Shown: positions 10,706-54,944, numbered from the stretch's first letter. The stretch: 64,000 nt of DNA from Dehalococcoidia bacterium (GCA_965197635.1 CBDANN010000005.1:346944-410943); one strand, 5' to 3'. Notes: generated from the letters alone by a model not told the origin. Program-made: numbers and translations.

Positions 10706-12994
10706 TTAGTCCCCGGTAATCCCCTCCGCCCGACGCAGCGCCTCCACGTCAAAGGGAATGTCCGCAGCCTCGCCGTTCAAAGCGGCCAAAACCCGCTCAC
10801 CGGAAAGCGGCAGCTCCTTGACCCGCACTCCCACGGCGTCATAGACCGCGTTGGCGATAGCGGCCGGCGGCCCGAACCCAGGCGGTTCGGCCACGGCCCG
10901 AGCGCCGAACGGGCCATCCGGGGCCGGCACGTTCACCAGCACGATTTCCATTTCCGGCAGATCAATCGCCAACGGCATCAGGTAAGACGCTAAGGACGGG
11001 TTCCTTACCGCCCCGGTGTCAGGGTCAAACTGTTGGTCTTCCGTCAGGGCGCGCCCGATTCCCTGCACCACACCGCCGTCCAACTGGCCCTCAACCGCCA
11101 TAGGGTTGATCGCAGTACCCACGTCCTGAGCCTGTACGTAACGCAGCACCCTGACCTGCCCGGTGTCGCGATCGACCTTCACCTCCGCCGCCTGCGCCGC
11201 GAACACCGGAGTGTACGGCATACTGGACAATGCAGCGGTCCCGATGATCGGCCCACCTCGCGACGTGATGCTGGCTGCCGCCAGTTGCGCGAAGGTCAAC
11301 CCTTGCGGCTCGTTGTCCAGCACATAGACGCGCCCGTCTTCGGAACCCAGCGCGTCCTCCGGCACACCCAGCCGCTCAGCGGCCAGCGCCGTCAGCTTTT
11401 GCAGCGTGTCTTGCGCCGCCCGCAGCACGGCAGTTCCCTGGCTGTAAACTACTCTGCTGCCGCCCGACTGCCCGGTATAGGGCGCCATGTCGGTGTCGCG
11501 CTTGGCAACGATGACACTATCCATGGGGATGCCCAGCGCCTCGGCCGCTATGGCTGCCAGCGAAGTGTCGCTGCCGGAAATGTCGGTTGAGCCGGTCAGC
11601 AGGCTCACCGTACCGTCGTCGTTGACGCTGATTGCTGCCGTAGAAGGCCCGCTGCCGCTGCGCCACTCGCACAAAGCCAGGCCCATGCCGTGCCCATCCT
11701 CCAGCTCCCGGGGCCAGTCCATCTTCTCCTTGATGGCCTCCAGGGTTTCCAGCAGTCCGTTGGTCGGCACCACCGCCCCGTTCACGGATACGTCGCCCTC
11801 GCGCAGGGCGTTTTGCACCCGCAGGTCGAAGGGGTCGATCCCCAATTCGTGGGCGATGTGGTCCATATGAGATTCCACGGCGAAAGTCATGTCCGCCACG
11901 CCGGAGGCCCGATACGATCCCACATAGATCTTGTTGGTATAGACGCCGTACGACCGGAGTCGGAAGTTGGGCACCCGGTAAGCGCCGATGCCATGGCCGA
12001 TGCCCGAGTTGGGCCCGGCGCCCAGATACGCGCCCACGTCAAAGATGGTGTACGCCTCGCGGGCGATGATGGTGCCGTCCCGCATCACCCCGGAGCGGAT
12101 GTAGTTTGACACCGGCAGGCGCGGCCCGTTCATGGTGAAAACTTCTTCCCGGGTGTTGACCAGTTTCACCGGCCGCCCGGTCTTCATGGCCAGCAGGGCC
12201 GGAAAGGCTTCAAGGGTAGAGCGCAGCTTGGCGCCGAACCCGCCGCCCAGTTCCATTGCCACCACGCGGATGCGCGAGACGGGCAGCTCCAGCACGGAGG
12301 CCAGCCCGGCCCGTAGCTGATACGGCCCTTGGGTGGAGGCGTAAATCACCAGGCGACCGTTGGGTTCCACGTCGGCAACGCAGGCCATGGGTTCCAGGAA
12401 GCCCTGGTTGATGCCCTGGGAGCGATAAACGTCCTCGACTACCACGTCGGCGTCCTTGAACGCCTGCTCCACGTCGCCCCGGTCCGCGTCCAGCAGCGTG
12501 CTGACGTTGTGCCCCAGGGTGAACCCATAGCCTTCGTAGCTCTCCAGCTCCGGGTGCACTGTGGCCGCGCCCGATGCCATGGAAGCCAGCGGATTCACCA
12601 CCGACGGCAAATCCTCGTATTCCACCTCAATGAGTTCGATAGCCTCCTGTGCCGTCGCCTCGTCATCCGCCGCCACCGCCGCAATGGGTTCGCCCAGGAA
12701 ATTCACCACCTCCCGCGGCATAATGTAGCGGTCACGCAGTGCGCCGGAGCCAAAGCGGATTTCGGGGAAATCCGTTCCCGTGATTACGCACCGCACGCCG
12801 GGCAGAGCCTCGGCCTTGCTTGTGTCAAGTCTGGTGATACGGGCATGGCTGCGCGCACCGGGCAGTAGCTTGCAAGCCAGCGTTCCCGGCAAGTACACGT
12901 CGGACGCATAGGTCGCCCGCCCAGTCACCTTGTCATAGGCGTCAACTCGCGGATGGTTTCGTTCCAGAACTTTGAACTGCTGTGTCATTGTCAT
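10706..12994 (-). CDS. xanthine dehydrogenase family molybdopterin-binding large subunit (CoxL-like)
   Basis: 762 aa with an aldehyde oxidase/xanthine dehydrogenase a/b-hammerhead and MoCo domains. The active-site loop reads GSYRASGV, so it is not a form-I CO dehydrogenase. Confidence 0.9.
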   Translation of the reverse strand: MTMTQQFKVLERNHPRVDAYDKVTGRATYASDVYLPGTLACKLLPGARSHARITRLDTSKAEALPGVRCVITGTDFPEIRFGSGALRDRYIMPREVVNFLGEPIAAVAADDEATAQEAIELIEVEYEDLPSVVNPLASMASGAATVHPELESYEGYGFTLGHNVSTLLDADRGDVEQAFKDADVVVEDVYRSQGINQGFLEPMACVADVEPNGRLVIYASTQGPYQLRAGLASVLELPVSRIRVVAMELGGGFGAKLRSTLEAFPALLAMKTGRPVKLVNTREEVFTMNGPRLPVSNYIRSGVMRDGTIIAREAYTIFDVGAYLGAGPNSGIGHGIGAYRVPNFRLRSYGVYTNKIYVGSYRASGVADMTFAVESHMDHIAHELGIDPFDLRVQNALREGDVSVNGAVVPTNGLLETLEAIKEKMDWPRELEDGHGMGLALCEWRSGSGPSTAAISVNDDGTVSLLTGSTDISGSDTSLAAIAAEALGIPMDSVIVAKRDTDMAPYTGQSGGSRVVYSQGTAVLRAAQDTLQKLTALAAERLGVPEDALGSEDGRVYVLDNEPQGLTFAQLAAASITSRGGPIIGTAALSSMPYTPVFAAQAAEVKVDRDTGQVRVLRYVQAQDVGTAINPMAVEGQLDGGVVQGIGRALTEDQQFDPDTGAVRNPSLASYLMPLAIDLPEMEIVLVNVPAPDGPFGARAVAEPPGFGPPAAIANAVYDAVGVRVKELPLSGERVLAALNGEAADIPFDVEALRRAEGITGD

Positions 12995-13028
12995 TTCAAG
13001 TGCCTCCGTTGCCGCCGAGATTGCCCAA

Positions 13029-13505
13029 CTAGCCGGCGTTTCGAATGTCCTCAGCGGCGGCCATGATCGCCTCCACCACCCGGGCGTACCCAGTGCAGCG
13101 GCAAAGGTTGCCCCCGATGGCGAACCGGACCTCTTCTTCAGTGGGATCGGAATTCTCCTGCAAAAACCCGGTGGCCGACACGATCAGCCCGGGTATGCAA
13201 AAACCACACTGCAAGCCGCCATGTTCTACGAATGCCTGCTGCACCGAGCTTAGTCCATCAACGCCGGCCAGCCCCTCGATTGTGGTTATCGCAGAGTCGT
13301 GGGCGCTGTGGGCCAAGACCAGGCAGGACGTTACGGGCTTGCCGTCCATCAGGACCGTGCATGCTCCACAGTCGCCTTCGTCGCATCCCTTTTTGGTGCC
13401 GGTCAGCTGCGCCTCATCGCGCAGGCAATCCAGCAGAGAATAGAATGGCTCCACCAGCATTAACCGGTTTTCACCATTGATAGACAGAGTCAGGGGTTGT
13501 TTCAT
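13029..13505 (-). CDS. (2Fe-2S)-binding small subunit (CoxS-like)
   Basis: 158 aa. CDEGDCGACTV and CGFCIPG...CRCTGY cysteine clusters. Confidence 0.9.
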   Translation of the reverse strand: MKQPLTLSINGENRLMLVEPFYSLLDCLRDEAQLTGTKKGCDEGDCGACTVLMDGKPVTSCLVLAHSAHDSAITTIEGLAGVDGLSSVQQAFVEHGGLQCGFCIPGLIVSATGFLQENSDPTEEEVRFAIGGNLCRCTGYARVVEAIMAAAEDIRNAG

Positions 13506-13526
13506 TGCGTCAACCTCAATCCATGC

Positions 13527-14447
13527 TCACCAAGTTGTTTGCACGGCCATGCGTCGGATGTCCTCAAACGTCGGCGCGCCATCCCCGGCAGTAGTTGCCG
13601 CGTGGCGCAGCGTTCGCTCAGTCAGCACCTGGACCATTTCCCGGCGATAATCGGCGCCGCTCCTAACGTCAGCAATCGGACTGGACGCTTGGGCGGCAAT
13701 TCGTCCGGCCTCGGCGATGGTCTCCACATTAGGCTGCTGACCCACCAGATAACCCTCAGCTCCATAGGCGCGCATGGGAGTCGGCGCCACGGAGCCCAAC
13801 GCAATCCTCACCCGGGCACAGGTTCCATCGCCGGCGAGGCTCACTACTGACGCCACTCCGATCGCTGAGATGTCCATTGCTCCCCGCGGGCTATGCTTGA
13901 TGTACAGGCCGCCTGTGTCGGGACCTGGAGCAGGCAACCGGATTTCGGTCATGATCTCGCCAGATTCCAATGCGGTCCGCCCTGGCCCCAGGAAAACTTC
14001 GTCAAGCGGCAGCCAGCGCTCTCCGCCTGGTCCGACCACGCGGCATTGAGCGTCGTAAGCCAACAGCGCCGGCAGGGTGTCGCCGGCCGGAGAAGCGTTG
14101 CAGATGTTGCCGGCCACTGTGGCAAGGTTACGCACCTGAACGCCCGCGAAAGCGGCCGCGCCGGCCACGAGGGCAGGGTAGCGAGTGCGCACGATGTCGC
14201 TCTGCTCAATGTCCTGCACCGTAACCATCGCCCCAATGGAGAGGCCATCGTCGTCATTGAAATCGATACCGTCCAGCCCCGGCACATGCTGCATACACAC
14301 CACGGTCTCGGGTCGCCATGCACCGGTGCGGAACCTCACCAGGAAGTCCGTACTCCCGGCCACCAGGCGCGCCCGCTCGCCATGCTCGGCCAGCATTCCC
14401 AACGCCTCGTCCAGAGAATGCGGCTCCAAATAGTCAAAACGAGCCAT
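13527..14447 (-). CDS. FAD-binding medium subunit (CoxM-like)
   Basis: 306 aa. FAD-binding PCMH-type domain (AGSTDF, GNICNASPAGD). First gene of the M-S-L operon. Confidence 0.85.
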   Translation of the reverse strand: MARFDYLEPHSLDEALGMLAEHGERARLVAGSTDFLVRFRTGAWRPETVVCMQHVPGLDGIDFNDDDGLSIGAMVTVQDIEQSDIVRTRYPALVAGAAAFAGVQVRNLATVAGNICNASPAGDTLPALLAYDAQCRVVGPGGERWLPLDEVFLGPGRTALESGEIMTEIRLPAPGPDTGGLYIKHSPRGAMDISAIGVASVVSLAGDGTCARVRIALGSVAPTPMRAYGAEGYLVGQQPNVETIAEAGRIAAQASSPIADVRSGADYRREMVQVLTERTLRHAATTAGDGAPTFEDIRRMAVQTTW

Positions 14448-14621
14448 TCAAACCCTCCCCGCGCCGGCGGAGATGGAGTATGGGGCAGCAGCGGCAACCC
14501 CGGTCATACGCCGGCCTGTGGCGATTATATGGGCCACCGGATAGACGGTCAACGAAACTCGGAAGGCCATGCCGGGCAATCGCATTTTGATTGCATCACA
14601 TTCGTCATCCCCGGGAAAGGG

Positions 14622-15954
14622 CTGACAGGGGTAGGTAACGGCTCAAACTGGCTTTCGCCGTAACTTGGGAAGGCGCATCAGCCTCCGGCATCTTGGTTGT
14701 GACACCACCAGATGCAGGAGACCCGCGATGCGCCTTCCCAAGGAATGCTATCAGATGCAAAAAACGATTGAAACGCATTTGCCTCACCTCTCCCAGCCAC
14801 AATTGACTGGCCTGGCGCTGTGGGTTTGTGGGGCCATCCTGGCGGGCAGCGCCTGTCAGAACGCCGTGGCCTCGGCCCTCTCGCCCTGGGGCAGATGGAA
14901 CAGCCTCCGGCAGTATCTCCGGGAGTGGCTCTACGACGGCAGCGACCGGAAAAGCCCCTGCCAAACCCAACTGGATGTCACTCTCTGCTTCGCGCCACTG
15001 CTGAAATGGGTTCTCTCCTGGTGGAGTTCCGAACGTCTCGCGCTGGCCATCGACCCCACGCTCAAGGGAGACCAGACCACCGCCATTGTCATCAGCGTCC
15101 TCTACCGTAGTTGCGCCATCCCCGTTGCCTGGCGCATCCACCACGCCACTCAGAAAGGCTCCTGGATGGACCCCACGGCGGAACTGCTCCAAGCCCTGGC
15201 CCCAGCGGTTCCCGAGGAAATGACCGTAATCGTGCTCTGCGACCGGGGCATCGCCAGTCCCAAGCTCTGGACACAGATACGCGCCCAGGGCTGGCATCCC
15301 GGTATGCGCTACCGGAAGAACATCACCTTCTGCGCCGACGGCGGCCAACGATTGCCCGCCTTGCGCTTCGTTTCCCGTCCCGATACCGCCTGGATTGGCC
15401 GTGGCACCGCCTTCGGTGCGCCAACCGCCCAGCGCCGTTGCACCCTGCTGGTGGTCTGGTACGCCGAGCAGGAGGAACCCTGGGTCATCCTCACCGACCT
15501 GCCGCCGGAGGAGGTCGGGGTCAGTTGGTACGCCCTGCGCTTCTGGATCGAGCTGGGCTTCAAGGCCCTCAAGAGCTTGGGCTGGAAGTGGGACAAGACC
15601 CGCCGCACCGACCCAACTCGTGTCTCCCGCCACTGGCTGGTATTGTCGGTGGCCACCCTGCTGGCCCTGGCCTACGGCACCCGGGTGGAAGACGCCCAGG
15701 ACCGCCGGATTGATCCAGGTAATCTGCGGGCGCCGCCCAAGGCGCTGGCTCCCAATCATCGAGACCCTCGGACCCGTCCGGCGCGCACCGTCAGCGTGAT
15801 CCGCCACGGCATCGACTGGCTCAGGCGGTTGCTGCTCAAGGGCCGCCTGTGGAGCCGTGTCTGGCTGTTGCCTGAACCCTGGCCTCAGCCCAAGCCCAAC
15901 TTGGAGATTACCCACCATGTGCCACCGTAAAAACGCGTTACCTACCCCTGTCAG
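14622..15954 (+). mobile_element. IS4-family insertion sequence (1333 bp)
   Basis: Perfect 19-bp terminal IRs CTGACAGGGGTAGGTAACG (14622-14640; reverse complement at 15936-15954). Flanked by an 11-bp direct repeat CCGGGAAAGGG (14611-14621 and 15955-15965). Confidence 0.85.
14755..15930 (+). CDS. IS4-family DDE transposase
   Basis: ATG 14755 within ORF 14665..15930. DDE context (LAIDPT, VLCDRG) and Y-x2-R-x3-E-x6-K signature in YALRFWIELGFKALK. Confidence 0.85.
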   Translation: MQKTIETHLPHLSQPQLTGLALWVCGAILAGSACQNAVASALSPWGRWNSLRQYLREWLYDGSDRKSPCQTQLDVTLCFAPLLKWVLSWWSSERLALAIDPTLKGDQTTAIVISVLYRSCAIPVAWRIHHATQKGSWMDPTAELLQALAPAVPEEMTVIVLCDRGIASPKLWTQIRAQGWHPGMRYRKNITFCADGGQRLPALRFVSRPDTAWIGRGTAFGAPTAQRRCTLLVVWYAEQEEPWVILTDLPPEEVGVSWYALRFWIELGFKALKSLGWKWDKTRRTDPTRVSRHWLVLSVATLLALAYGTRVEDAQDRRIDPGNLRAPPKALAPNHRDPRTRPARTVSVIRHGIDWLRRLLLKGRLWSRVWLLPEPWPQPKPNLEITHHVPP

Positions 15955-16074
15955 CCGGGAAAGGGGGGATCCAATGGCCTGTGGCGGCGGTTTCGTTCGC
16001 CGGTTGAGAACGCCGGCGAAACCCCATACAATCAGCCCACACCGCGCGACCACCCAATTCCGGAGGGCCCTACC

Positions 16075-16752
16075 GTGGCAGCCACCAGAATCATCACCAA
16101 CGCCTGGAAAGTGCGAACCATGCCCGACGTCTTCTACGAAGACCCGGAGCCGGTTGAGGACGGTATGCGTCAAGACCCCTTCATCCACCGTATCGCGCAT
16201 TTGCTGCGGGAACGTTACGAAGACCGCACGGATGTGTTCGTCTCCACCGGCGGCTACGTCTCCTACGACCGAACCAACGGCAACCGGCGGGTCGCCCCCG
16301 ACTGCTACATCGCCTTTGACGTGGACGTGGCGGGCATCTACGAGAACCTGCCGAACTTCTGGATTTGGGAGACGGGCAAGGCGCCGGACTTTGTGATGGA
16401 AGTGGCGTCGCCGAGCACGGCGGAGCACGATTTGGGCTGGAAGCGGGAGCTGTACCAGCGGCTGGAGATAATGGAGTACTGGCGGTTCGACCCGACGGGG
16501 GGACGGCTCTATGGCCGGCCCATTGCGGGAGAGCGGCTGGTTGACGGCCGGTACGAAGATTACCCGTTGGAGTACGGCGGTGACGGTTCGGCGCGGGGTC
16601 ACAGCGAGTTGCTGGGCGTGGCGTTCTACTGGGACGGCCGGCAGGATTTTGACGTGCTGGATCCGGTCACGGGCCTGACGATAGACAAACGCGTTGCCGC
16701 CGAAGCCGAACTCGCCCACCTCAGGGCGCAACTCCGCCGACAGCGGCCGTAA
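16075..16752 (+). CDS. Uma2-family (DUF820) endonuclease
   Basis: PD-(D/E)xK-like block APDFVMEVASPST...KRELYQRLEIMEYWRFDP typical of Uma2. The start is uncertain (GTG 16075 or ATG 16120). Confidence 0.7.
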   Translation: MAATRIITNAWKVRTMPDVFYEDPEPVEDGMRQDPFIHRIAHLLRERYEDRTDVFVSTGGYVSYDRTNGNRRVAPDCYIAFDVDVAGIYENLPNFWIWETGKAPDFVMEVASPSTAEHDLGWKRELYQRLEIMEYWRFDPTGGRLYGRPIAGERLVDGRYEDYPLEYGGDGSARGHSELLGVAFYWDGRQDFDVLDPVTGLTIDKRVAAEAELAHLRAQLRRQRP

Positions 16753-16833: not shown

Positions 16834-18942
16834 CTAATGGCTGCCATTCCCGTAGGGCTGGATCAGCACCCGCAGCGTCCCATCGTCCTCTTTGCGCTGA
16901 GTCAGCAGGCGATGTCCGGCTTGCTCCGCCCAGTAGATGACGTCGTAGATGTTGAGCGCGTCGTGCAGGATGGCCTCAATGAACGAAGTCCGGTCATACT
17001 CCATCTGCCGGCTGAGCGCCGCAATGACGCCGGCGCAGTTCTTGCCCCGCCCGTCGATCACCGTCCACCCGTTGCTGCCGTTCCCGTTGCTGTGCCCATT
17101 GCCGTATCCGTTGCCGCCTGGGACGGCGCCGACCGGAGCGCGAACATCGATAACGCCGCTCTTGCGCAGATCCAACTGCTCCTTGAAGTAGGCCACCGCT
17201 TCCCAGGCCACTGCCCGGTCCCGTTCGCCACTGGAACAAACTGCGCCCCGCACACCCACGATGTCCGGGTTGATGCGGGTCAGTTCGTCCAGGTTTTCCA
17301 GCTTCAGGTGTCCGCTCAGGGCAGTGCTGAGACCGGCCTGCTTGGCCTCCATCACCATATCCCGCAATATCGTCTCGGGCATGAAGTCAAACAGGTTGCG
17401 CCCATCCTTGGTCAGGGTGTCGATCAGGAACCCGTCGCACTCGCCTTCCTTCGCCAACTGCACCATCAGATTCGGGTCCAATCCACCCTCAAACAACAGG
17501 TTGTCAGCGAAAAGCGACCCGATGAGCTTGGTGTCTGCATTTCCGATAGCCGCACGGGATTCGCGCAGCACTTGCACTGCGGTTTGATAATCGGCGACCC
17601 GGAACCCCACCTTGACCGACGTGGCATCCAGCAACGCAGCCGCGTGAACCGCCATGGCTACCGTGCCGGGTTGGTTGGGGACCACTCCGAGCGTGACGCT
17701 GACGTGCTTATGCTCCGGAATGCGCTCCCGCACTTCCCGCACCAGGTTGGGATGTCCCGAACCTACCAACGCCTCCTGGAGGTTCTTCACATCAATGATA
17801 TCCGCGCCTCCCCGGTCAGCCTCCAGCGCTTCGGGCATATCCTGGACGCTGACCAGCAACATCATCCCGGATTCGCTCAAACCGCTGCGACCGTCGCGGA
17901 CTCCGGCGCCATTCAGCCACGGGGCATGGGGCCTTCCGTGGATGACCTCGCGGGCAGGTTGGGCCGGCGCGGCGGCACGCGGGAGCAGGGGCTCCAACTC
18001 ACTCCACAACTCGGCCTTTTCATCTGCGGTCAGGTCCACCAGCGGCGCGCGGACACTGCCGCCGGCCATCCCCATCATCTCGCCCCAAGCCTTGCACATC
18101 GCCACCGGGAGGGCGCCGCCCATCTTCTTCATCGTGCCGCCCCACCACTTGTCGGACAGCGCCTTGATGTCCTTCAGGTGGCGGTTGTAGAATTCCATGT
18201 CGTGGTCGCCGGCGGTGGCGCGGTCAATGAACTGGGTGTAGTAGTTTTGACGTGGGGTGTCGAACCGCCAATCGGAGGTGTTGGCGAACATCACCTGCTG
18301 GTGGAAGCCCAACTCTTTCGCCTTGTGGAATATCCACTCGTCCGGCGTGCTGATGATGGCGTCGCGTCCCACCAGCAGATGGGTTTCGATGGAAATCTGT
18401 TGGTTGAAGCTGGCTTCTTTCACGCCTACCACGTTGGGAATAGCGCACAGCCGCTTCAATCCCTGGGGACTGATGGTGATCCCGAACTGGGGCGAGTTGT
18501 AGAACATCATCGCCAGGTCGGTGGTTTCGGCCACTTGCCGCACGAAATCCACCACCTGGTCCTCAGTCTTGGTAACCATGTAGGACGGGGCGATGATGAG
18601 CAGATCAAAACCGCGTTGCTGGGCGTGTCGCGCCAGGGCGACGCTTTCCCCCAACGAGGTGTCGGTTACGTGAGCGCCAATAAGCCAGTGACCCGTGGCC
18701 TCATCGGCCACGGTGTCCATCACCAGCCGGCGTTCCGCCTCGGTCAAACTCCAAAATTCGCCCATGTTCCAAGTGCAGCCACCGCCGCGCACGCCCAAGC
18801 TCCGCACATGTCGGACGTTGCGCCGCAATCCCTCTGTATCCACCTGGTTGTCAGGCGTGAAAGGCGTAACCAGGGTTGTCCATTGCCCCTTCAGCGTTTG
18901 CCAGGCCCATTCCTGCGCCTCATGCTTGCGGTAATCGGCCAT
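16834..18942 (-). CDS. tri-domain fusion of DapA-family aldolase, MfnB-like (DUF556) domain and TusA-like domain
   Basis: Residues 1-330 carry DHDPS-family motifs (FYNSP, GVKEAS). Residues about 370-600 align by eye to archaeal MfnB (LLVS..ADIIDVKN, VKVGF, IDTLTKDG, IVGVRGAVC). A G/N-rich linker follows, then IDGRGKNCAG..., a TusA/SirA-like fold. Confidence 0.75.
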   Translation of the reverse strand: MADYRKHEAQEWAWQTLKGQWTTLVTPFTPDNQVDTEGLRRNVRHVRSLGVRGGGCTWNMGEFWSLTEAERRLVMDTVADEATGHWLIGAHVTDTSLGESVALARHAQQRGFDLLIIAPSYMVTKTEDQVVDFVRQVAETTDLAMMFYNSPQFGITISPQGLKRLCAIPNVVGVKEASFNQQISIETHLLVGRDAIISTPDEWIFHKAKELGFHQQVMFANTSDWRFDTPRQNYYTQFIDRATAGDHDMEFYNRHLKDIKALSDKWWGGTMKKMGGALPVAMCKAWGEMMGMAGGSVRAPLVDLTADEKAELWSELEPLLPRAAAPAQPAREVIHGRPHAPWLNGAGVRDGRSGLSESGMMLLVSVQDMPEALEADRGGADIIDVKNLQEALVGSGHPNLVREVRERIPEHKHVSVTLGVVPNQPGTVAMAVHAAALLDATSVKVGFRVADYQTAVQVLRESRAAIGNADTKLIGSLFADNLLFEGGLDPNLMVQLAKEGECDGFLIDTLTKDGRNLFDFMPETILRDMVMEAKQAGLSTALSGHLKLENLDELTRINPDIVGVRGAVCSSGERDRAVAWEAVAYFKEQLDLRKSGVIDVRAPVGAVPGGNGYGNGHSNGNGSNGWTVIDGRGKNCAGVIAALSRQMEYDRTSFIEAILHDALNIYDVIYWAEQAGHRLLTQRKEDDGTLRVLIQPYGNGSH

Positions 18943-19165
18943 GATAGAAAGCCTCCAACGAAAATCGTCAAAACTTCTGCGCCAATTCCACGGTGGGCCG
19001 GCTATGTGCGATCGGCGGAATCAACCGCTTGGCGGGTTCCCAGTGTAAGGGCCGGCGCGCGCCGCCGTCAACAAACCGTGTCAACCCAACACGATCCGCC
19101 GCGCCCAAATTACCGTACTTCCCAGGGGCCGATGGCGCTTTGCCTTGCCTTCCCGCGGCCCTTTA

Positions 19166-20876
19166 CCCCCAATCCACCGAAAGGATGAGGTTGGTGTCGT
19201 GCTGAAGGGTTGAAAAAGTGCTCCCGGCTTCGGGGATAATGGTTTGTGAGACACCAAACCAACCCGGAACAAGGAGCACCCAACGGATGCTACCACCTGA
19301 GCGCCTTGAGCGCATCCAGGTCGCCTTCGACGATCACCGCCTGGTGGCCAACGCCGGACTGATCCTGCCGGTCACGCTGGCCCATCACCTGGGTCTGGGC
19401 GAACTGGTGGACCGCCACGTTGACTTGGGAGATGCACCGGGTCGTGCGAATGCTGGGGACAAGATGCTGACCCTGGTGGCGTCGGCCCTGGCCGGTGGCG
19501 ACTGCATCGACGACGCCGACGCGCTGCGCGCTGGCGGGACCGAGCAGGTGCTGGGCTGTGTGGTCAAGGCGCCGTCCACGTTGGGTACGTTCCTGCGGAG
19601 TTTCCGTTGGGGCCACGCGCGGCAGCTGGATCGGGTGAGCCGTGAGGCGCTGGCCCGAGCCTGGGGCGCCGGGGCCGGACCGGGCGATGATCCGTTGACC
19701 ATCGACCTGGACTCCACCATCTGTGAGACCTACGGTCCGGCCAAGGAAGGGGCGCGCCGCCACACCTACACCGGCCAGCGGGGCTATCACCCGCTGTTCG
19801 CCGTCGCCGCTGGCACCGGCGACGTGCTGATGGCTCGGCTGCGCCAGGGACGCGCCAACACCGCTCGCGGCGCGGCCCACTTCCTGCGAGAGACGGTAAG
19901 GCGAGTGCGCTGCGCCGGAGCCACCGGACCGCTCACCATGCGGGCCGACAGCGGCTTCTACAACCACGACATCGTCGCCGTCTGCCGCAAGATGAAGGTC
20001 CGCTTCTCCATCACCGTCCGCCAGCACGCCCAGTTGCGCAATCTCATCGCAGCCATACCTGAAGAGGACTGGACGCCCATCCCTTACTGGATGGAGGGCG
20101 CCGCCGACGTGGCCGAAACCAGCTACACTCCCTTCGCCAGTGAGCCCGATGCTGTGCCGGTGCGTCTCATCGTCCGAAGGGTGCAGCCCACGCCCAACTC
20201 CCAGCTGGCCCTCTTGGTCGACTACAGCTATCACGGCTTCATCACCGATAGAGACGGCGACACCCTGGAACTGGAGGCCGATCATCGCCGCCACGCCGAG
20301 ATCGAGAACGCCATCCGCGACCTCAAGTACGGGGTGGGTCTCAACCACCTGCCCTCGGGCCGCTTCCCCGCCAACGCCGCCTGGCTGGCCGTCCAGACGA
20401 TGGCCCACAACCTGGCCCGCTGGACCACGCGCCTCGGGCTGGGCGAGCCGGTGGCGACCACCAAGACCCTGCGCAGGCGCTTCTTCTCCCTGGCCGGACG
20501 CCTCACCCGCAAGGCACGCCGCCTCACTTTGCATCTCCCCCAGGGCTGGCCCTGGCGAAACCAGTTCAGCAGCGCCCTGGCCAGACTGCGCGCACTGCCA
20601 CTCCCTTCTTGACCACGCCCGCGGCGTCTGACCTGTCCCCCAGATTACCTAACTGTCTGGCCCAGCCGCGCCAGGCTCGGCTCCTGATGGCCTCCGCCGG
20701 CGATCGGCGCTGAAAATCGCTTCCCGCGCCGCTACTACGGGTCGTCAACATCTCTTTGGACCGGCATCCACGCCCCACATCGTCCATTTCATCGGCATCA
20801 GGTCCCCGCCAGCCCGATCCCTGGTCCCTCATCCCTCCTCTGACCGCCGCCACGGTTTCCCTTCGGTGGATTCGGG
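19166..20876 (+). mobile_element. IS1380-family insertion sequence (about 1.7 kb)
   Basis: Imperfect IRs: CCCCCAATCCACCGAA at 19166 and the reverse complement CCCGAATCCACCGAA ending at 20876. Flanked by a TTTA direct repeat (19162-19165 and 20877-20880). Confidence 0.7.
19287..20612 (+). CDS. IS1380-family transposase
   Basis: AAGGAG 11 nt upstream of ATG 19287. DLDSTICETYG...GYHPLFAV...LRQGRANTARGA block typical of IS1380/ISEcp1-like DDE transposases. Confidence 0.85.
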   Translation: MLPPERLERIQVAFDDHRLVANAGLILPVTLAHHLGLGELVDRHVDLGDAPGRANAGDKMLTLVASALAGGDCIDDADALRAGGTEQVLGCVVKAPSTLGTFLRSFRWGHARQLDRVSREALARAWGAGAGPGDDPLTIDLDSTICETYGPAKEGARRHTYTGQRGYHPLFAVAAGTGDVLMARLRQGRANTARGAAHFLRETVRRVRCAGATGPLTMRADSGFYNHDIVAVCRKMKVRFSITVRQHAQLRNLIAAIPEEDWTPIPYWMEGAADVAETSYTPFASEPDAVPVRLIVRRVQPTPNSQLALLVDYSYHGFITDRDGDTLELEADHRRHAEIENAIRDLKYGVGLNHLPSGRFPANAAWLAVQTMAHNLARWTTRLGLGEPVATTKTLRRRFFSLAGRLTRKARRLTLHLPQGWPWRNQFSSALARLRALPLPS

Positions 20877-26363: not shown

Positions 26364-27161
26364 TCACCAAAAAGCGTGAAAATGGTGCAGGGGGCCGTGT
26401 CCCTGCCCAATTGGATAAGCCGCTCGTATCGCGGCAGTGACGTACTCCTTGGCGCGTGCCACTGCCTGCGGCGTCTCCAATCCATGCGCCAGTCCGGCGG
26501 CAACTGCGGACGCGAAAGTACAACCCGTGCCATGGGTGTTGGTGGATGGGATGCGTTCCGTCGTGAACTCTCTGAACTGCTCCCCGTCATACAGCAGGTC
26601 GGTGGGCGCCCCATCCCGGTGTCCCCCTTTGATAACCACCGCGCGAGGCCCCATTGCCGAGATGGTCACCGCCGCCCGGCGGACGTCGTCTTCAGATCTG
26701 ATCGCGCGGCCGGTCAAATCCTCCGCCTCGGGAATGTTTGGGGTAACCACCGCTGCCAGCGGCAACAAGGTGTCGCAAATTGATGCAATGGCTTCCGTGC
26801 GCAGCAACCGGTCGCCACTTTTGGCGACCATGACGGGGTCAACCACGAGATTCTCGATGCCGTGGCGGCGGATCGCCTCCGCAACGGTTTCCACGATGGC
26901 GCTGGACGATAGCATCCCCGTCTTAACCGCATCCGCTCCGATATCCATCATTACAGCGTCGATCTGAGCGGAGACCACGTCGGTGGGCACCTCATGCACG
27001 GCAGTTACACCAATCGTGTTCTGCGCCGTGATCGCGGTGAGCGTCGAGGTGCCAAATACGCCCAGCGCCGAGAATGTTTTCAGGTCTGCCTGGATACCGG
27101 CGCCTCCTCCCGAGTCGGAACCGGCGATGGTCATCACGGTTGGCGGTCTCGATCTGGTCAT
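26364..27161 (-). CDS. thiD: hydroxymethylpyrimidine/phosphomethylpyrimidine kinase
   Basis: 265 aa. [19 protein letters not shown]-terminus and HGTGCTF motif. Confidence 0.9.
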
Positions 27162-27904: not shown

Positions 27905-28747
27905 ATGGACATCGGTTTGAATATGTCAATTTCCACCAACTCCATTGACGTGGCGGACATCGCAGCCAAAGCGGAAGCCATGGGTTTCGAGTCGATCTGG
28001 CTGCCGGAACATCCGGTGATGCCCGTGAATACTGCGTCGAAATATCCGGGCTCCCCTGACGGGTCCATCCCCAACTATATGAGCGACATGGCGGACCCGT
28101 ACATCGGCCTGGCCCGCGCCTCCGCGGTAACGAACACGATCAAACTCGGCACCGGCATCACACTGATCCCCGAGCGCAACCCCTTGGTGCTGGCCGGAGC
28201 CATCTCCACGTTGGACCGTTTTTCAGGCGGACGTTTCATCCTTGGCATCGGCACCGGTTGGTTGCGCGAGGAAACGGAAATTATGGGAGGCGACTTCGAC
28301 CATCGCTGGACACAAGCCAGGGAGGCCATCGAAGTGATGCGTGCGCTGTGGACCCAAGATGCTGCCGAGTATCACGGACGCCACTACGATTTCCCGCCCG
28401 TCCAATGCAATCCGAAGCCAGTCCAGGAAGGGGGCCCGCCGGTGATCCTGGGCGGCAACGCCCGCAACGTGTTCCGCCGGGTGGCTCGTTGGGGCGACGG
28501 CTGGATGCCCACGGCGTCCAGTCCGGACCAAATAGCCGCTGGCCGCGCCGCAATCGACGAGTTGGCCGAGGCGTCGGGCCGCGACCCTTCCGGCATCAAC
28601 ATCACCGTGTTCGGCCAGCCGGCGGACCGTGAGTTGATCTCTCGCTTTGAGGAAGCCGGCGCCAACCGCGTGATCATCCGTCTTCCCGACACCACCAGCG
28701 CCGCTGCTCTTGACGAGGTCGAGCGAATAGCGGAGGCAGCCTTGTGA
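27905..28747 (+). CDS. luciferase-like (LLM class) F420-dependent oxidoreductase
   Basis: 280 aa. ESIWLPEH...GTGWLREE...FPPVQCNPKPVQ pattern typical of LLM-class F420 enzymes. Confidence 0.75.
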   Translation: MDIGLNMSISTNSIDVADIAAKAEAMGFESIWLPEHPVMPVNTASKYPGSPDGSIPNYMSDMADPYIGLARASAVTNTIKLGTGITLIPERNPLVLAGAISTLDRFSGGRFILGIGTGWLREETEIMGGDFDHRWTQAREAIEVMRALWTQDAAEYHGRHYDFPPVQCNPKPVQEGGPPVILGGNARNVFRRVARWGDGWMPTASSPDQIAAGRAAIDELAEASGRDPSGINITVFGQPADRELISRFEEAGANRVIIRLPDTTSAAALDEVERIAEAAL

Positions 28748-48662: not shown

Positions 48663-49634
48663 CTAAACCCGGCCGCCGGCGGACCGGATTGCTTTGGTCA
48701 ACGCGGCAGCGGCGGCCTCCGGCTCGGGAGCGTTTCCCACTGCCGCTGTCACGCATATGGCGTCGGCTCCCGCTTCGACCACCGGCGCAACATTCGCCGC
48801 AGTGATGCCGCCTATCGCTACCAACGGCACCTGGGCGGCGGCACGAGCCTGCTTCAACCGCTCCGGCCCTTGAGGCGCTCTGGTCACCTGCTTGGTAGTC
48901 GTGGTGTACATCGCTCCAAACGCCACGTGGTCCGCTCCCATCTGTTGGGACTCGACAATCAAATCAATCTCCCGGTTGGAGCGGCCCAACACCTGTCCGG
49001 GAGCCAGGATTTTCCGGGCCTCGGATACCGGCAGGTCGGTCTGGCCCACGTGCAGCCCGACATCATCCCCACCCAAGGCGGCAGCCAGATCGGCGTGGTC
49101 GTTGATAATCAGCAACGCACCATTGGCCGCGCACAAATCCCGTAAGGCCTCGCCCAACGGCAATTGTTCGCCCTTATCCCGCAACTTGTCGCGCAGTTGC
49201 AGCATCCGGGCGCCGCCGTTGATAGCGGCTCGCGCGATATCCAAAGGTTCGCGCCCCCCCGTGACTTCTGGATCTATGATCACGTACAGGCCACGAATGC
49301 GGTCAGCCTGCTCCTTACGCATCACTCCGCCGATACGGGCCGTCGCGTCATCCAGGGCTCTCCGCAGTTGCAGCGCCGAGTCCGCGCCGATTTGTCCTGC
49401 GTTCAGCATCACTTCCAATAGATTACGGGCCGCGCCGGCCAACGCGAGCGCTTCGCGCCGGTTTCCTGGCCGCCCGGCGTTGGCCGGCGTGGGGCGTGGC
49501 GCCTCAATCCCGGTGTCCAGCCAGCCGATTTCACCGCGCATCAGACCTTCCGGGATACCATCCGACGCCAACAGTCCCTCCAGGCAACCCACCAGGGCCG
49601 GCGTCAGATCAGGGGCGTTTTGTTCCGTCGTCAC
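48663..49634 (-). CDS. thiE: thiamine-phosphate synthase with about 105-aa N-terminal extension
   Basis: The C-terminal 215 aa carry LYVIIDP...LQLRDK...HVGQTDLP...AIGGI ThiE motifs. The N-terminal extension is unassigned. Confidence 0.85.
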   Translation of the reverse strand: MTTEQNAPDLTPALVGCLEGLLASDGIPEGLMRGEIGWLDTGIEAPRPTPANAGRPGNRREALALAGAARNLLEVMLNAGQIGADSALQLRRALDDATARIGGVMRKEQADRIRGLYVIIDPEVTGGREPLDIARAAINGGARMLQLRDKLRDKGEQLPLGEALRDLCAANGALLIINDHADLAAALGGDDVGLHVGQTDLPVSEARKILAPGQVLGRSNREIDLIVESQQMGADHVAFGAMYTTTTKQVTRAPQGPERLKQARAAAQVPLVAIGGITAANVAPVVEAGADAICVTAAVGNAPEPEAAAAALTKAIRSAGGRV

Positions 49635-54560: not shown

Positions 54561-54569
54561 GCGTTGTCG

Positions 54570-54944
54570 ATGCCAAGCGACCGCATCATTCTCACCGGGA
54601 TGCAGTTCTATGGTTTCCACGGGGTCAACCCGGAGGAACGCAGTCTGGGCCAACCCTTTGTCCTTGACCTCGAGGTGGAACTCGACCTTCGACCGGCTGC
54701 CGCCTCCGACCGCTTGGCCGACACCGTGAGTTACACGGAACTGTACCGGGCGGCCAAAGACGTGATGGAGGGTAAACCCCGGAATTTATTGGAAGCTGCC
54801 GCCGGGTCAATTGCCAGCCGGGTTCTTGAACAACACCCTGAAGTTTGCTCGGTTAGCGTTCGAGTGCAGAAACCCCGGCCACCCATCCGTGGCTCGGTGA
54901 TCGAGTCAGCCGCTGTCGAAATCTGCCGCCGCCGTGGAGAATAA
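54570..54944 (+). CDS. folB: dihydroneopterin aldolase
   Basis: IILTGMQFYGFHGVNPEERSLGQPFVLDLEV signature. ATG 54570. Confidence 0.85.
   Translation: MPSDRIILTGMQFYGFHGVNPEERSLGQPFVLDLEVELDLRPAAASDRLADTVSYTELYRAAKDVMEGKPRNLLEAAAGSIASRVLEQHPEVCSVSVRVQKPRPPIRGSVIESAAVEICRRRGE

What the first reader, a model, noticed from the sequence alone, without database searches (positions are those of the whole stretch)
16834..18942. Unusual tri-domain fusion of DapA-like aldolase, MfnB-like furan synthase fold and TusA-like domain
One 702-aa ORF joins three parts. The first is a DHDPS/NAL-family Schiff-base aldolase with an apparently intact catalytic Lys context (GVKEAS) and Tyr (FYNSP). The second is a domain matching, by eye, the catalytic landmarks of archaeal MfnB: DIIDVKN, KVG, DT..KDG, IVGVRGA. 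MfnB is 4-(hydroxymethyl)-2-furancarboxaldehyde-phosphate synthase of methanofuran biosynthesis. The third, after a Gly/Asn-rich linker, is a TusA/SirA-like domain whose usual CPxP is replaced by C-A-G-V. Fusing two class-I aldolase-type barrels with a sulfur-carrier-like fold suggests a dedicated small-molecule pathway, perhaps for a furan or heterocycle cofactor or metabolite. No other mfn genes are nearby. I do not know this architecture from described enzymes. The locus is flanked by two unrelated IS elements, and F420-type enzymes occur in the same window.
Basis: partly seen in the sequence, partly recalled or inferred. Interest (0 to 1): 0.7.

Follow-up and report, generated by a model that had tools for sequence, protein, structure and literature searches.

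The report
Fused furan-synthase, aldolase, TusA-like enzyme
This gene fuses three enzyme parts that many uncultured marine bacteria and archaea also carry as a tight operon; it probably makes an unknown furan-based, possibly sulfur-containing, small molecule that nobody has described.

Summary
Window 16834-18942 (minus strand) encodes an intact 702-aa protein with three parts:
- a DHDPS/NAL-fold Schiff-base aldolase (aa 1-320);
- a full-length MfnB-type 4-HFC-P synthase (aa 359-597) with all catalytic residues;
- a TusA-like domain (aa 625-697) with an invariant Cys in C-A-G instead of CPxP.

It is not an assembly artefact. More than 120 protein clusters and 116 SAR202/Dehalococcoidia species genomes carry the same architecture at 66-93% identity.

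The same three parts also occur split. Other Chloroflexi have two translationally coupled genes. A Thermoprotei-type archaeal locus has two convergent genes. Thermoplasmata-type metagenome contigs have a three-gene operon. In 65 of 73 judgeable metagenome loci, MfnB and the TusA-like part lie beside the aldolase. The parts therefore work together.

Canonical bacterial MfnB (Azospirillum) is instead stand-alone among formyl-methanofuran genes. No mfn or fhc genes lie near any module.

Most likely mechanism (inferred, not shown): MfnB makes the furan aldehyde 4-HFC-P, the aldolase extends it with a 2-oxo acid, and the TusA-like Cys donates sulfur or carries an intermediate. The product is unknown, and I found no publication on it. 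It is an undescribed, widespread module built from known folds.

The parts
16834..18942 (-). Complete ORF, 702 aa: tri-domain protein (DHDPS-like aldolase, MfnB-like synthase, TusA-like domain)
17983..18942 (-). Domain 1 (aa 1-320): DHDPS/NAL-fold class I (Schiff-base) aldolase of a divergent orthologous group. Hallmarks are W58-N-M-G-E62 in place of GTTGE, FYNSPQFG, GVKEASFN, and the inserted loop N221-TSDWRFD-228.
   Evidence: Pfam E=1.8e-29. AF2 model pLDDT 95.5 and Foldseek TM 0.75-0.78 to DapA/NAL/YagE. Group-specific residues.
18418..18420 (-). Codon of Lys175, the predicted Schiff-base lysine of the aldolase domain. It is invariant in the 44-sequence fusion family, in the orthologues, and in at least 90% of 110 homologues.
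18499..18501 (-). Codon of Tyr148 (equivalent of DapA Tyr133). It is invariant in the MfnB-associated orthologues and mostly Phe in paralogues.
17869..17982 (-). Linker 1 (aa 321-358): Pro/Ala-rich, variable in length and sequence among homologues, low pLDDT.
17152..17868 (-). Domain 2 (aa 359-597): full-length MfnB-type 4-HFC-P synthase barrel. D384/K386/K444/D508/K512/R574 correspond to M. jannaschii D25/K27/K85/D151/K155/R217.
   Evidence: Pfam E=2.9e-55. PDB 4rc1/4u9p E=7e-44 with alignment. Residue roles from PMC6604932 and PMC11365854.
17785..17787 (-). Codon of Lys386, the equivalent of the MfnB Schiff-base Lys27.
17071..17151 (-). Linker 2 (aa 598-624): Gly/Asn-rich, low complexity, length-variable.
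16852..17070 (-). Domain 3 (aa 625-697): TusA/SirA-like beta-alpha-beta-alpha-beta-beta domain with the motif D-G-R-G-K-N-C636-A-G-V.
17035..17037 (-). Codon of Cys636. It is invariant in all 57 distinct TusA-like parts examined and aligns with the CPxP cysteine of TusA-family proteins.
19042..19071 (-). Sigma-70-like promoter match (TTGACG, 18 nt spacer, TACACT) in the roughly 225 bp of native upstream DNA left between the start codon and IS-2. Tentative.
   Evidence: consensus match only

Best explanation
The ORF is a naturally fused three-component enzyme. Its parts act together on one small-molecule pathway that is distinct from the canonical methanofuran route.

- **Step 1 (inferred from full conservation of the catalytic residues).** The MfnB domain condenses two D-glyceraldehyde-3-phosphate molecules into the furan aldehyde 4-(hydroxymethyl)-2-furancarboxaldehyde phosphate (4-HFC-P), through a Schiff base on Lys386.
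- **Step 2 (inferred).** The DHDPS-like domain forms a Schiff base on Lys175 with a 2-oxo acid, most likely pyruvate. It adds that acid to the aldehyde of 4-HFC-P. The result is a C9 furan 4-hydroxy-2-oxo acid, or its dehydrated enone. An aromatic-rich, Arg/Lys-containing specificity pocket would hold the furan phosphate.
- **Step 3 (speculative).** The TusA-like domain is tethered by a flexible Gly/Asn linker. It would use its invariant Cys636 either to deliver persulfide sulfur to the product or to hand over the reactive aldehyde as a thiohemiacetal.

The end product is probably a cofactor-like or otherwise important metabolite of SAR202 Chloroflexota and of Thermoplasmata- and Thermoprotei-type archaea.
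For: **Functional coupling of the three parts (strong).**
- The fused form occurs in more than 120 protein clusters and 116 species genomes.
- A two-gene form, DHDPS-like then MfnB-TusA, has an ATGA stop/start overlap. Its parts are 62-64% identical to the corresponding parts of the window protein.
- An archaeal-type locus has a convergent pair.
- A three-gene operon MfnB > TusA-like > DHDPS-like, or a convergent variant, occurs in 65 of 73 judgeable metagenome loci. All 65 have the TusA-like part.
- All three domains are highly conserved while only the linkers vary.

**Step 1.** The match to M. jannaschii MfnB has E=7e-44, and D25/K27/K85/D151/K155/R217 are all kept.

**Step 2.**
- Lys175 and Tyr148 are invariant, and the fold is confirmed.
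- Residues specific to the MfnB-associated orthologues cluster at the C-terminal ends of the barrel strands. They are rich in aromatics (W58, F153, F179, W225, F227, W267), plus R226 (0% in paralogues) and K260 (6% in paralogues).
- In the one other non-methanofuran MfnB context found here (Streptomyces), the gene next to MfnB is an aldehyde dehydrogenase. In the methanofuran route the next step is a transamination of the aldehyde by MfnC (from my own knowledge). In both, the aldehyde is the handle that gets elaborated.

**Not the canonical methanofuran context.** No mfn or fhc/fwd genes were seen in the annotated or examined flanks of the modules, or among the window genes I scanned. Canonical Azospirillum MfnB, by contrast, sits among fhcA/C/D. 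SAR202 genome papers report only H4-folate C1 oxidation.

**Step 3.** Cys636 is invariant in 57 distinct sequences and aligns with the TusA active-site Cys.
Against: - No enzyme assay exists and the product is unknown.
- The order of action of the two barrels is not determined by any data here.
- The usual pyruvate-carboxylate-binding Thr/Ser pair (GTTGE) is replaced by N/G-M, so the donor may not be pyruvate.
- The CPxP motif of sulfur-transferring TusA proteins is absent, and no cysteine desulfurase or other sulfur-relay gene is linked. The TusA-like part may therefore be structural or regulatory.
- Eight archaeal loci have the aldolase orthologue with no MfnB within 2.5 kb.
- Genome-wide absence of methanofuran-dependent enzymes could not be tested. 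Chistoserdova 2016 lists Chloroflexi, Thermoplasmatales and Thermoproteales among lineages with some H4MPT/MF genes.
Confidence: 0.4

Rival explanations
1. **Methanofuran- or methylofuran-type cofactor biosynthesis.** The MfnB domain has its canonical role of supplying the furan of a formyl-carrier coenzyme. The aldolase and TusA-like parts are lineage-specific accessories, for example replacing or feeding another Mfn step.
For: The MfnB domain is catalytically complete. The only characterised role of MfnB in the papers read here is methanofuran biosynthesis. Chistoserdova 2016 reports some H4MPT/MF-linked genes in Chloroflexi, Thermoplasmatales and Thermoproteales, the same broad lineages that carry the module.
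Against: No mfnA, mfnC-F, fhc/fwd or H4MPT gene was seen in the annotated or examined module flanks, or among the window genes scanned. Canonical bacterial MfnB is embedded in such an island and lacks both a TusA tail and a DHDPS-like partner. SAR202 genome studies describe H4-folate-linked C1 oxidation only. NCBIfam MfnB equivalog scores are far below cut-off (190 against 341 bits).
Confidence: 0.2
2. **The aldolase acts upstream, not downstream.** It would be a KD(P)G-type lyase that cleaves a 2-keto-3-deoxy-6-phospho sugar acid to pyruvate plus GA3P. That would channel GA3P into the MfnB domain, which needs two GA3P per turnover.
For: The DHDPS family includes archaeal KD(P)G aldolases, and there is a weak NCBIfam hit to that family (E=5.9e-10). 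R226 and K260, specific to the orthologues, could bind a sugar phosphate. Fusion would favour substrate channelling.
Against: GA3P is a central metabolite, so a dedicated supplier is not obviously needed. The specificity residues are dominated by aromatic side chains, which is unusual for a sugar-acid site. No sugar-acid pathway genes are linked. The idea gives no role to the TusA-like Cys.
Confidence: 0.12
3. **The MfnB-like barrel does different, sulfur-dependent chemistry.** With persulfide sulfur from the obligatory TusA-like partner, the MfnB-type cyclisation would yield a sulfur heterocycle (thiophene-type) or a thiolated furan rather than 4-HFC-P. The aldolase would then extend that product.
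For: In this module, MfnB always comes with a TusA-like part whose Cys is invariant (65 of 65 loci). Canonical (Azospirillum) and Streptomyces MfnB lack that part. From my own knowledge, ThiG/ThiS is an analogous pairing of a Schiff-base TIM barrel with a small sulfur carrier that makes a five-membered heterocycle.
Against: All residues needed for the oxygen-cyclising MfnB reaction are retained. The CPxP motif is lost. No sulfur-mobilising enzyme is linked. I know of no precedent for such chemistry.
Confidence: 0.12
4. **Artefact.** The ORF would be a chimeric assembly or a frameshift-generated read-through of separate genes.
For: Split versions of the genes do exist in other lineages, and the locus is flanked by IS elements.
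Against: The same 680-720-aa architecture is found in more than 120 independent 90%-identity clusters and 116 species genomes, including multi-megabase long-read chromosomes. Domains are conserved in frame and the linkers vary only by whole codons.
Confidence: 0.01

Closest known systems
MfnB, 4-HFC-P synthase of methanofuran biosynthesis (M. jannaschii MJ1099; PDB 4RC1/4U9P; Pfam PF04476)
   Same: The barrel is full length and E=7e-44 to MJ1099. All documented catalytic and substrate-binding residues are kept (D25, K27, K85, D151, K155, R217). It probably catalyses the same reaction.
   Different: Here it is always joined or adjacent to a TusA-like part and a DHDPS-like aldolase. It is not linked to other mfn, fhc or H4MPT genes, and it scores below the NCBIfam equivalog cut-offs.
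DHDPS/NAL superfamily of class I pyruvate aldolases (DapA, NanA, YagE/KDG aldolases; Pfam PF00701)
   Same: It has the (beta/alpha)8 fold with the C-terminal helical extension. The Schiff-base Lys sits on strand 6 and the catalytic Tyr on strand 5. The best PDB and Foldseek matches are DapA, NAL and YagE.
   Different: Identity is only 17-24% and TM only 0.75-0.78. GTTGE is replaced by W-N/G-M-G-E, DapA Arg138 by Phe and Tyr107 by Met. There is an 8-residue inserted loop, NTSDWRFD, and an aromatic-rich pocket. All NCBIfam subfamily cut-offs are missed. It is not DapA and not any characterised subfamily.
TusA/SirA sulfur-carrier family (Pfam PF01206; PDB 1PAV, Ta1170)
   Same: It has the same size and a beta-alpha-beta-alpha-beta-beta secondary structure. 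The conserved Cys sits at the N-terminus of helix 1 and aligns with the CPxP Cys. A D-x-P/L-x-x-D-(V/I)-x-x-W motif is also shared.
   Different: CPxP is replaced by C-x-G. The domain is fused or operon-linked to two aldolase-type barrels rather than to sulfur-relay or transport proteins. No sulfur-donor enzyme is nearby.
Streptomyces plasmid operon MfnB - aldehyde dehydrogenase - alcohol dehydrogenase - methyltransferase (L176, L177)
   Same: It is another MfnB context without methanofuran genes, in which the adjacent enzyme is predicted to act on an aldehyde.
   Different: It has no DHDPS-like or TusA-like partner, and the implied chemistry is oxidation or methylation rather than aldol extension. 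It also appears to be undescribed.
ThiG/ThiS thiazole synthase and NahE-type hydratase-aldolases (analogies from my own knowledge; not tested here)
   Same: ThiG/ThiS pairs a Schiff-base TIM barrel with a small sulfur-carrier protein to build a five-membered heterocycle. NahE-type DHDPS-family enzymes condense pyruvate with aromatic and heteroaromatic aldehydes.
   Different: There is no detectable sequence relationship to ThiG or ThiS. NahE/PhdJ did not appear among the 60 best PDB matches listed. These are mechanistic analogies only.

Membership tests
MfnB / 4-HFC-P synthase (PF04476) | Full-length match to the family profile above the curated threshold | tested here: met
   188 bits against a 22.4-bit gathering score, covering 1-225 of 228 profile positions
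MfnB / 4-HFC-P synthase (PF04476) | Two essential Lys and two essential Asp (Lys27 Schiff base, Asp25, Lys85, Asp151), plus Lys155 and Arg217 | tested here: met
   D384, K386, K444, D508, K512 and R574 align to these residues, and all are invariant in 44 homologues. Residue roles are from PMC6604932 and PMC11365854.
MfnB / 4-HFC-P synthase (PF04476) | NCBIfam equivalog score (functional equivalence to curated MfnB) | tested here: not met
   190 and 177 bits against cut-offs of 341 and 304
MfnB / 4-HFC-P synthase (PF04476) | Genomic association with other methanofuran or H4MPT genes (mfnA, mfnC-F, fhc/fwd) | tested here: not met
   None was seen in the annotated or examined module flanks, or among the window genes scanned. 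The contrast is Azospirillum MfnB next to fhcA/C/D. Genome-wide presence could not be tested.
MfnB / 4-HFC-P synthase (PF04476) | Formation of 4-HFC-P from two GA3P | not testable with these tools
   Needs an enzyme assay
DHDPS/NAL class I aldolase superfamily (PF00701) | Profile match and (beta/alpha)8 fold with C-terminal helices | tested here: met
   102.8 bits against a 22.1-bit threshold. AF2 pLDDT 95.5, and Foldseek probability 1.00 to DapA, NAL and YagE.
DHDPS/NAL class I aldolase superfamily (PF00701) | Schiff-base Lys on strand 6 and catalytic Tyr on strand 5 | tested here: met
   K175 and Y148 are aligned and invariant
DHDPS/NAL class I aldolase superfamily (PF00701) | G-x-(T/S)-(T/S)-G-E pyruvate-carboxylate-binding motif | tested here: not met
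   The sequence is W58-N-M-G-E62 (W-G-M-G-E in many homologues). Gly and Glu are kept but the Thr/Ser pair is lost.
DapA (4-hydroxy-tetrahydrodipicolinate synthase) proper | Arg138 (aspartate-semialdehyde binding), the Thr44/Tyr107 relay, and the TIGR00674 cut-off | tested here: not met
   Arg138 is replaced by Phe153, Tyr107 by Met122 and Thr44 by Asn59. The score is 72 bits against a 206-bit cut-off.
TusA/SirA sulfur carrier (PF01206) | Profile match above the gathering score | tested here: inconclusive
   The window domain scores 21.1 bits within the whole protein and 27.0 bits alone, against a 28.6-bit threshold. A stand-alone orthologue scores 28.9 bits. All 14 of 14 diverse members match (best E=7.5e-9), and the family profile hits 1PAV at E=2e-4 over the full length.
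TusA/SirA sulfur carrier (PF01206) | Conserved active-site Cys at the start of helix 1 | tested here: met
   C636 is invariant in 57 distinct sequences and aligns to the Cys of CPGP in 1PAV
TusA/SirA sulfur carrier (PF01206) | CPxP motif | tested here: not met
   The motif is C-A-G-V here and C-(K/T/Q/A)-G in orthologues
TusA/SirA sulfur carrier (PF01206) | Accepts persulfide sulfur from a cysteine desulfurase | not testable with these tools
   Needs biochemistry. No desulfurase gene is linked in any locus examined.

The most novel reading that the evidence does not exclude
The triad would be the core of an undiscovered biosynthetic route to a sulfur-bearing five-membered heterocycle or thiolated furan. 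The TusA-like Cys would feed persulfide sulfur into, or ferry intermediates between, an MfnB-type cyclase and a Schiff-base aldolase. The product would be a new cofactor-like metabolite shared by globally abundant SAR202 bacteria and by Thermoplasmata- and Thermoprotei-type archaea.
Probability: 0.12. Interest if true: 0.9.

Novelty: new variant of a known kind. Interest (0 to 1): 0.64.

Why it matters
SAR202 Chloroflexota are among the most abundant bacteria of the deep ocean and of marine sponges. Here the gene is single-copy and highly conserved (66-93% identity across more than 100 species). It sits among housekeeping genes, which suggests an important product.

The same three-part module recurs in uncultured Thermoplasmata- and Thermoprotei-type archaea. 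MfnB is the only enzyme I know of that builds a furan ring directly from triose phosphate. Its only characterised use in the papers I read is methanofuran.

A second, widespread MfnB-based pathway with an aldolase and a sulfur-carrier-like partner would point to an unknown furan-derived, possibly sulfur-containing, metabolite or cofactor. It would also offer a compact one-polypeptide biocatalyst that links C3 metabolism to functionalised furans.

The idea is directly testable in vitro with GA3P and pyruvate.

Tried and rejected
1. **Riboswitch or RNA element upstream.** An Rfam scan of the window, L001 and L004 found only a TPP riboswitch before thiC, several kb away. Nothing lies upstream of the gene.
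2. **Operon partners in SAR202.**
   - The order IleRS-Fpg-[fusion]-CoxM/S/L-like Mo-hydroxylase (or DUF1326/DUF2277)-PNPOx-SbcC-Ffh is conserved.
   - It looks like inherited synteny. The downstream partner differs between subclades, the gap is about 170 bp, and divergent members (L085, L079, L047, L072) sit among unrelated genes.
   - I considered the parallel between a Mo-hydroxylase plus acyl-CoA ligase and the furoyl-CoA pathway (HmfABC/HmfD, from my own knowledge). I left it as an unproven lead.
3. **Acs-like AMP-forming ligase near the module.** It occurs in 22 archaeal-type loci and in L094 and L085. The L085 copy is only 43% identical, which I would expect for any two Acs proteins (my own estimate). 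I treated it as possible lineage synteny.
4. **A characterised close relative of the aldolase domain.** Sequence, profile and structure searches of the PDB gave only generic DapA, NAL and YagE. Plasmid relatives at about 29% identity, and paralogues such as L095, sit in catabolic-looking clusters without MfnB and differ at the specificity residues.
5. **Full-length AF2 model.** It was too poor (pLDDT 64) to say anything about how the domains pack.
6. **Literature.** Searches for MfnB in bacteria, SAR202 with methanofuran or H4MPT, DUF556/UPF0264/PF04476, and TusA with DHDPS found nothing on this architecture. The 'DUF556' hit was a prefix match to DUF5565.
7. **Thiamine-thiazole or PLP alternative-pathway ideas.** ThiC/ThiD and a PNPOx-family gene lie in the neighbourhood. 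I dropped these ideas because the carbon skeletons do not fit and the linkage is not consistent.
Full report
**1. The observation**

The window carries an intact 702-aa ORF on the minus strand at 16834-18942 (ATG to TAG). A GGAGG ribosome-binding site lies about 10 nt upstream.

- DHDPS (PF00701): aa 18-315, E=1.8e-29.
- 4-HFC-P synthase/MfnB (PF04476): aa 362-584, E=2.9e-55, essentially the whole profile.
- TusA (PF01206): aa 628-695, E=2.8e-4, 21.1 bits, below the 28.6-bit gathering score.

The flanking mobile elements are real:
- IS-1 spans 14620-15956, with perfect 21-nt terminal inverted repeats and a DDE_Tnp_1 transposase.
- IS-2 spans about 19167-20876, with 19-nt inverted repeats and a DDE_Tnp_1_4 transposase.
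- A Uma2-family gene lies at 16075-16752.

About 225 bp of native upstream DNA remains and contains a promoter-like match.

**2. Not an artefact, and not rare**

A search of about 5.8 billion proteins returned 497 hits. The best 120 were all full-length (676-776 aa), had the same Pfam architecture, and were 67-92% identical.

A scan of one genome per GTDB species found 116 relatives. All 80 kept were in Dehalococcoidia, SAR202 or Chloroflexota MAGs. Many appear to be sponge-derived, judging from the bin names, and many are multi-megabase chromosome-level assemblies.

At 50% identity the fusion collapses to a single representative cluster, so the fused architecture belongs to one tight clade.

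In a 44-sequence alignment, all three domains are strongly conserved. Only the two linkers vary, and only in length and composition: aa 321-358 is Pro/Ala-rich and aa 598-624 is Gly/Asn-rich. That pattern is what a genuine multidomain protein under purifying selection looks like.

**3. Genomic setting in SAR202**

Across 80 loci the order is conserved: GYD - ThiD-like kinase - IleRS - Fpg - [fusion] - then either a CoxM/S/L-like three-subunit Mo-hydroxylase or DUF1326/DUF2277 - PNPOx-family - SbcC - Ffh.

The window has exactly this order on the minus strand. The two IS elements and the Uma2 gene interrupt it. An MFS gene also present in its closest relatives lies between Fpg and the fusion.

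This is a housekeeping neighbourhood. The most divergent fusion genes sit among unrelated genes, so the SAR202 context says little about function. Rfam finds no RNA element upstream of the gene.

**4. The decisive evidence: the same three parts occur unfused**

I searched with the aldolase domain alone. This found a large Chloroflexi family of stand-alone proteins (321-331 aa, about 64% identical) with the same hallmark motifs.

- **Two-gene form.**
  - In their genomes this gene overlaps by 4 bp (ATGA) with a 326-327-aa gene that is MfnB plus a TusA-like tail.
  - That gene is 62% identical to the corresponding part of the window protein over its whole length.
- **Archaeal-type orthologues.**
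  - More distant orthologues are 50-54% identical to the window domain.
  - One cluster has a member named as a Thermoplasmata archaeon, and another protein is named as a Thermoprotei archaeon. Some loci carry archaeal markers (Rpr2, an archaeal CCA-adding enzyme, TBP).
- **Metagenome survey.** A scan seeded with these orthologues kept 80 loci.
  - 53 have MfnB (about 254 aa) > TusA-like (about 94 aa, often with overlapping stop/start) > DHDPS-like (about 325 aa) on one strand.
  - 12 have the aldolase convergent with TusA-like and MfnB genes; in one of these the two are a single ORF.
  - 8 have no MfnB within 2.5 kb.
  - 7 contigs are too short to judge.
  - So 65 of 73 judgeable loci have MfnB adjacent, and all 65 have the TusA-like part. 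That count includes six where I found it by translating the gap.

Paralogues of the aldolase that lack an MfnB neighbour differ at exactly the hallmark motifs. One-, two- and three-gene versions across two domains of life are classic evidence that the parts act together.

**5. What each part looks like**

*MfnB domain.*
- It aligns to M. jannaschii MfnB (PDB 4RC1/4U9P) at E=7e-44.
- D384/K386/K444/D508 correspond to the two Asp and two Lys that are essential in MfnB (Lys27 forms the Schiff base; PMC6604932).
- K512 and R574 correspond to the substrate-binding Lys155 and Arg217 (PMC11365854).
- All of these are invariant in the family.
- The domain falls below the NCBIfam equivalog cut-offs.

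*Aldolase domain.*
- With a 110-sequence alignment, AlphaFold gives a confident model (pLDDT 95.5, pTM 0.92) of a DHDPS/NAL-type barrel.
- Foldseek and profile searches give only generic DapA, NAL and YagE matches (TM 0.75-0.78, 17-24% identity).
- The Schiff-base Lys175 and Tyr148 are invariant.
- The family's GTTGE motif reads W-N/G-M-G-E. DapA's Arg138 and Tyr107 are replaced by Phe and Met. An 8-residue loop, NTSDWRFD, is inserted.
- Residues invariant in the MfnB-associated orthologues but rare in paralogues include W58, Y148, Q152, F153, S178, F179, N221-D228 (with R226), K260 and W267.
- All of them lie at or just after the C-terminal ends of the barrel strands, which is the catalytic face of a TIM barrel. 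The set is aromatic-rich with two basic residues.
- I take that to fit a planar phosphorylated substrate such as 4-HFC-P. This is an inference.

*TusA-like part.*
- All 14 diverse representatives match PF01206 (best E=7.5e-9).
- Their profile finds the SirA/TusA-type structure 1PAV end to end, with the invariant Cys aligned to the CPGP cysteine.
- The low-confidence full-length model predicts a beta-alpha-beta-alpha-beta-beta secondary structure for this region.
- The Cys is invariant in 57 distinct sequences, but the motif is C-x-G and not CPxP.

**6. Comparison with other MfnB contexts**

- On an Azospirillum replicon, MfnB is a stand-alone gene of about 234 aa inside a classical H4MPT/methanofuran island (fhcA/C/D, PQQ methanol dehydrogenase).
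- On two Streptomyces plasmids, it heads an operon with an aldehyde dehydrogenase, an alcohol dehydrogenase and a methyltransferase.
- In both cases the match stops at the end of the MfnB barrel. There is no TusA tail and no DHDPS-like partner.
- In the methanofuran route the next enzyme, the aminotransferase MfnC, works on the aldehyde of 4-HFC-P (from my own knowledge). In the Streptomyces operon the adjacent enzyme is annotated as an aldehyde dehydrogenase.
- By analogy, a class I aldolase, which uses aldehydes as electrophiles, would also act on that aldehyde.

No mfn, fhc/fwd or H4MPT gene was seen in the annotated or examined module flanks, or among the window genes scanned.

SAR202 genome papers describe H4-folate-linked C1 oxidation. 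They use 'methylene-tetrahydromethanopterin reductase' only as a family name for luciferase-like oxidoreductases.

Chistoserdova (2016) does list Chloroflexi, Thermoplasmatales and Thermoproteales among lineages with some H4MPT/MF genes.

**7. Most likely mechanism and rivals**

Best explanation (confidence about 0.4 for the whole chain; coupling of the parts is about 0.9):
- MfnB makes 4-HFC-P from two GA3P.
- The aldolase, through Lys175, adds a 2-oxo acid (probably pyruvate) to the furan aldehyde.
- The tethered TusA-like Cys636 donates sulfur or carries an intermediate.

Step 1 rests on residue conservation. Steps 2 and 3 are inference.

Rivals:
- Canonical methanofuran-type cofactor synthesis with accessory partners (0.2).
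- The aldolase acting upstream as a KD(P)G-type supplier of GA3P (0.12).
- Sulfur-dependent alternative chemistry in the MfnB barrel (0.12).
- An assembly artefact (about 0.01).

**8. Novelty**

Each domain belongs to a known family. Databases name the protein only 'dihydrodipicolinate synthase family protein' or 'UPF0264/DHDPS'.

I found no paper describing the fusion, the operon or the association.

It is therefore an undescribed, widespread variant of MfnB-based chemistry: known folds in a new combination, with an unknown product. I rate it as a new variant of a known kind, with interest 0.64. A simple in-vitro experiment could settle it.

Noticed in passing
L176 (NZ_CP108735.1 303300-306596) and L177 (NZ_CP108274.1 110363-114625): Two Streptomyces plasmids share a conserved four-gene operon: MfnB homologue, aldehyde dehydrogenase, NAD(P) alcohol dehydrogenase, class I SAM methyltransferase. 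This is a separate, apparently undescribed, non-methanofuran use of MfnB, possibly for a furan-carboxylate natural product.
   Followed up: partly
window 14620-15956 and 19167-20876: Two different IS elements bracket the gene. IS-1 has perfect 21-nt terminal inverted repeats (GGCTGACAGGGGTAGGTAACG) and a DDE_Tnp_1 transposase at 14665-15930. IS-2 has 19-nt imperfect inverted repeats and a DDE_Tnp_1_4 (IS1380-type) transposase at 19218-20612. They interrupt an otherwise conserved SAR202 gene order. A Uma2-family gene (16075-16752) lies between IS-1 and the fusion.
   Followed up: yes
window 10706-14447 (minus strand): A three-subunit xanthine-dehydrogenase/CoxMSL-family Mo-hydroxylase (FAD, 2Fe-2S and MoCo subunits) lies directly downstream of the fusion in about 45 of 80 SAR202 loci, on the same strand. 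A remote paralogue of the aldolase on a Chelatococcus plasmid is also adjacent to an XDH-family subunit (L086). Whether this is functional linkage (compare furoyl-CoA dehydrogenase) or just synteny is unresolved.
   Followed up: partly
L001 and L002 (ENA contig ctg471347_115x_l, 6.2 Mb; positions about 0.76 Mb and 4.55 Mb): The same contig carries the whole EF-G...rpsL...IleRS-Fpg-fusion...Ffh region twice, with near-identical gene order. This is either a very large duplication or two strains joined in assembly.
   Followed up: no
L091 8992-9972: In one split-type locus the MfnB-TusA gene is broken into 188-aa and 125-aa ORFs, and the locus is surrounded by DDE_Tnp_1_4 transposases. The module may be decaying in that genome.
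   Followed up: no
L086-L088 (rhizobial and roseobacter plasmids) and L095: Paralogues of the aldolase domain (about 29-38% identity) that lack MfnB sit in conserved clusters. These include a 3-hydroxyanthranilate-dioxygenase-like cupin, aspartate dehydrogenase, succinate-semialdehyde dehydrogenase, cyclase/BKACE and XDH-family genes. They look like uncharacterised catabolic pathways for N-heterocyclic or aromatic compounds.
   Followed up: partly
L094 1757-3496; L105-L175 (22 loci); L085 7844-9913: An Acs-like AMP-forming acyl-CoA ligase recurs next to the module in Thermoplasmata-type loci and next to a divergent SAR202-type fusion. It often comes with an aldehyde dehydrogenase and a sarcosine-oxidase-alpha-like flavoprotein nearby. 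It is a possible further pathway component or lineage synteny.
   Followed up: partly
window 26364-27161, 48663-49634, 27905-28747, 55038-56669, 54564-54944; L004 383-497: The window also encodes ThiD, a ThiE-type TMP synthase with an N-terminal extension, a luciferase-like (F420/FMN-type) oxidoreductase, a 543-aa protein with a C-terminal nitroreductase domain, and a FolB-like gene (named from its sequence only, not scanned). In relatives, a TPP riboswitch precedes thiC a few kb upstream of the fusion.
   Followed up: no
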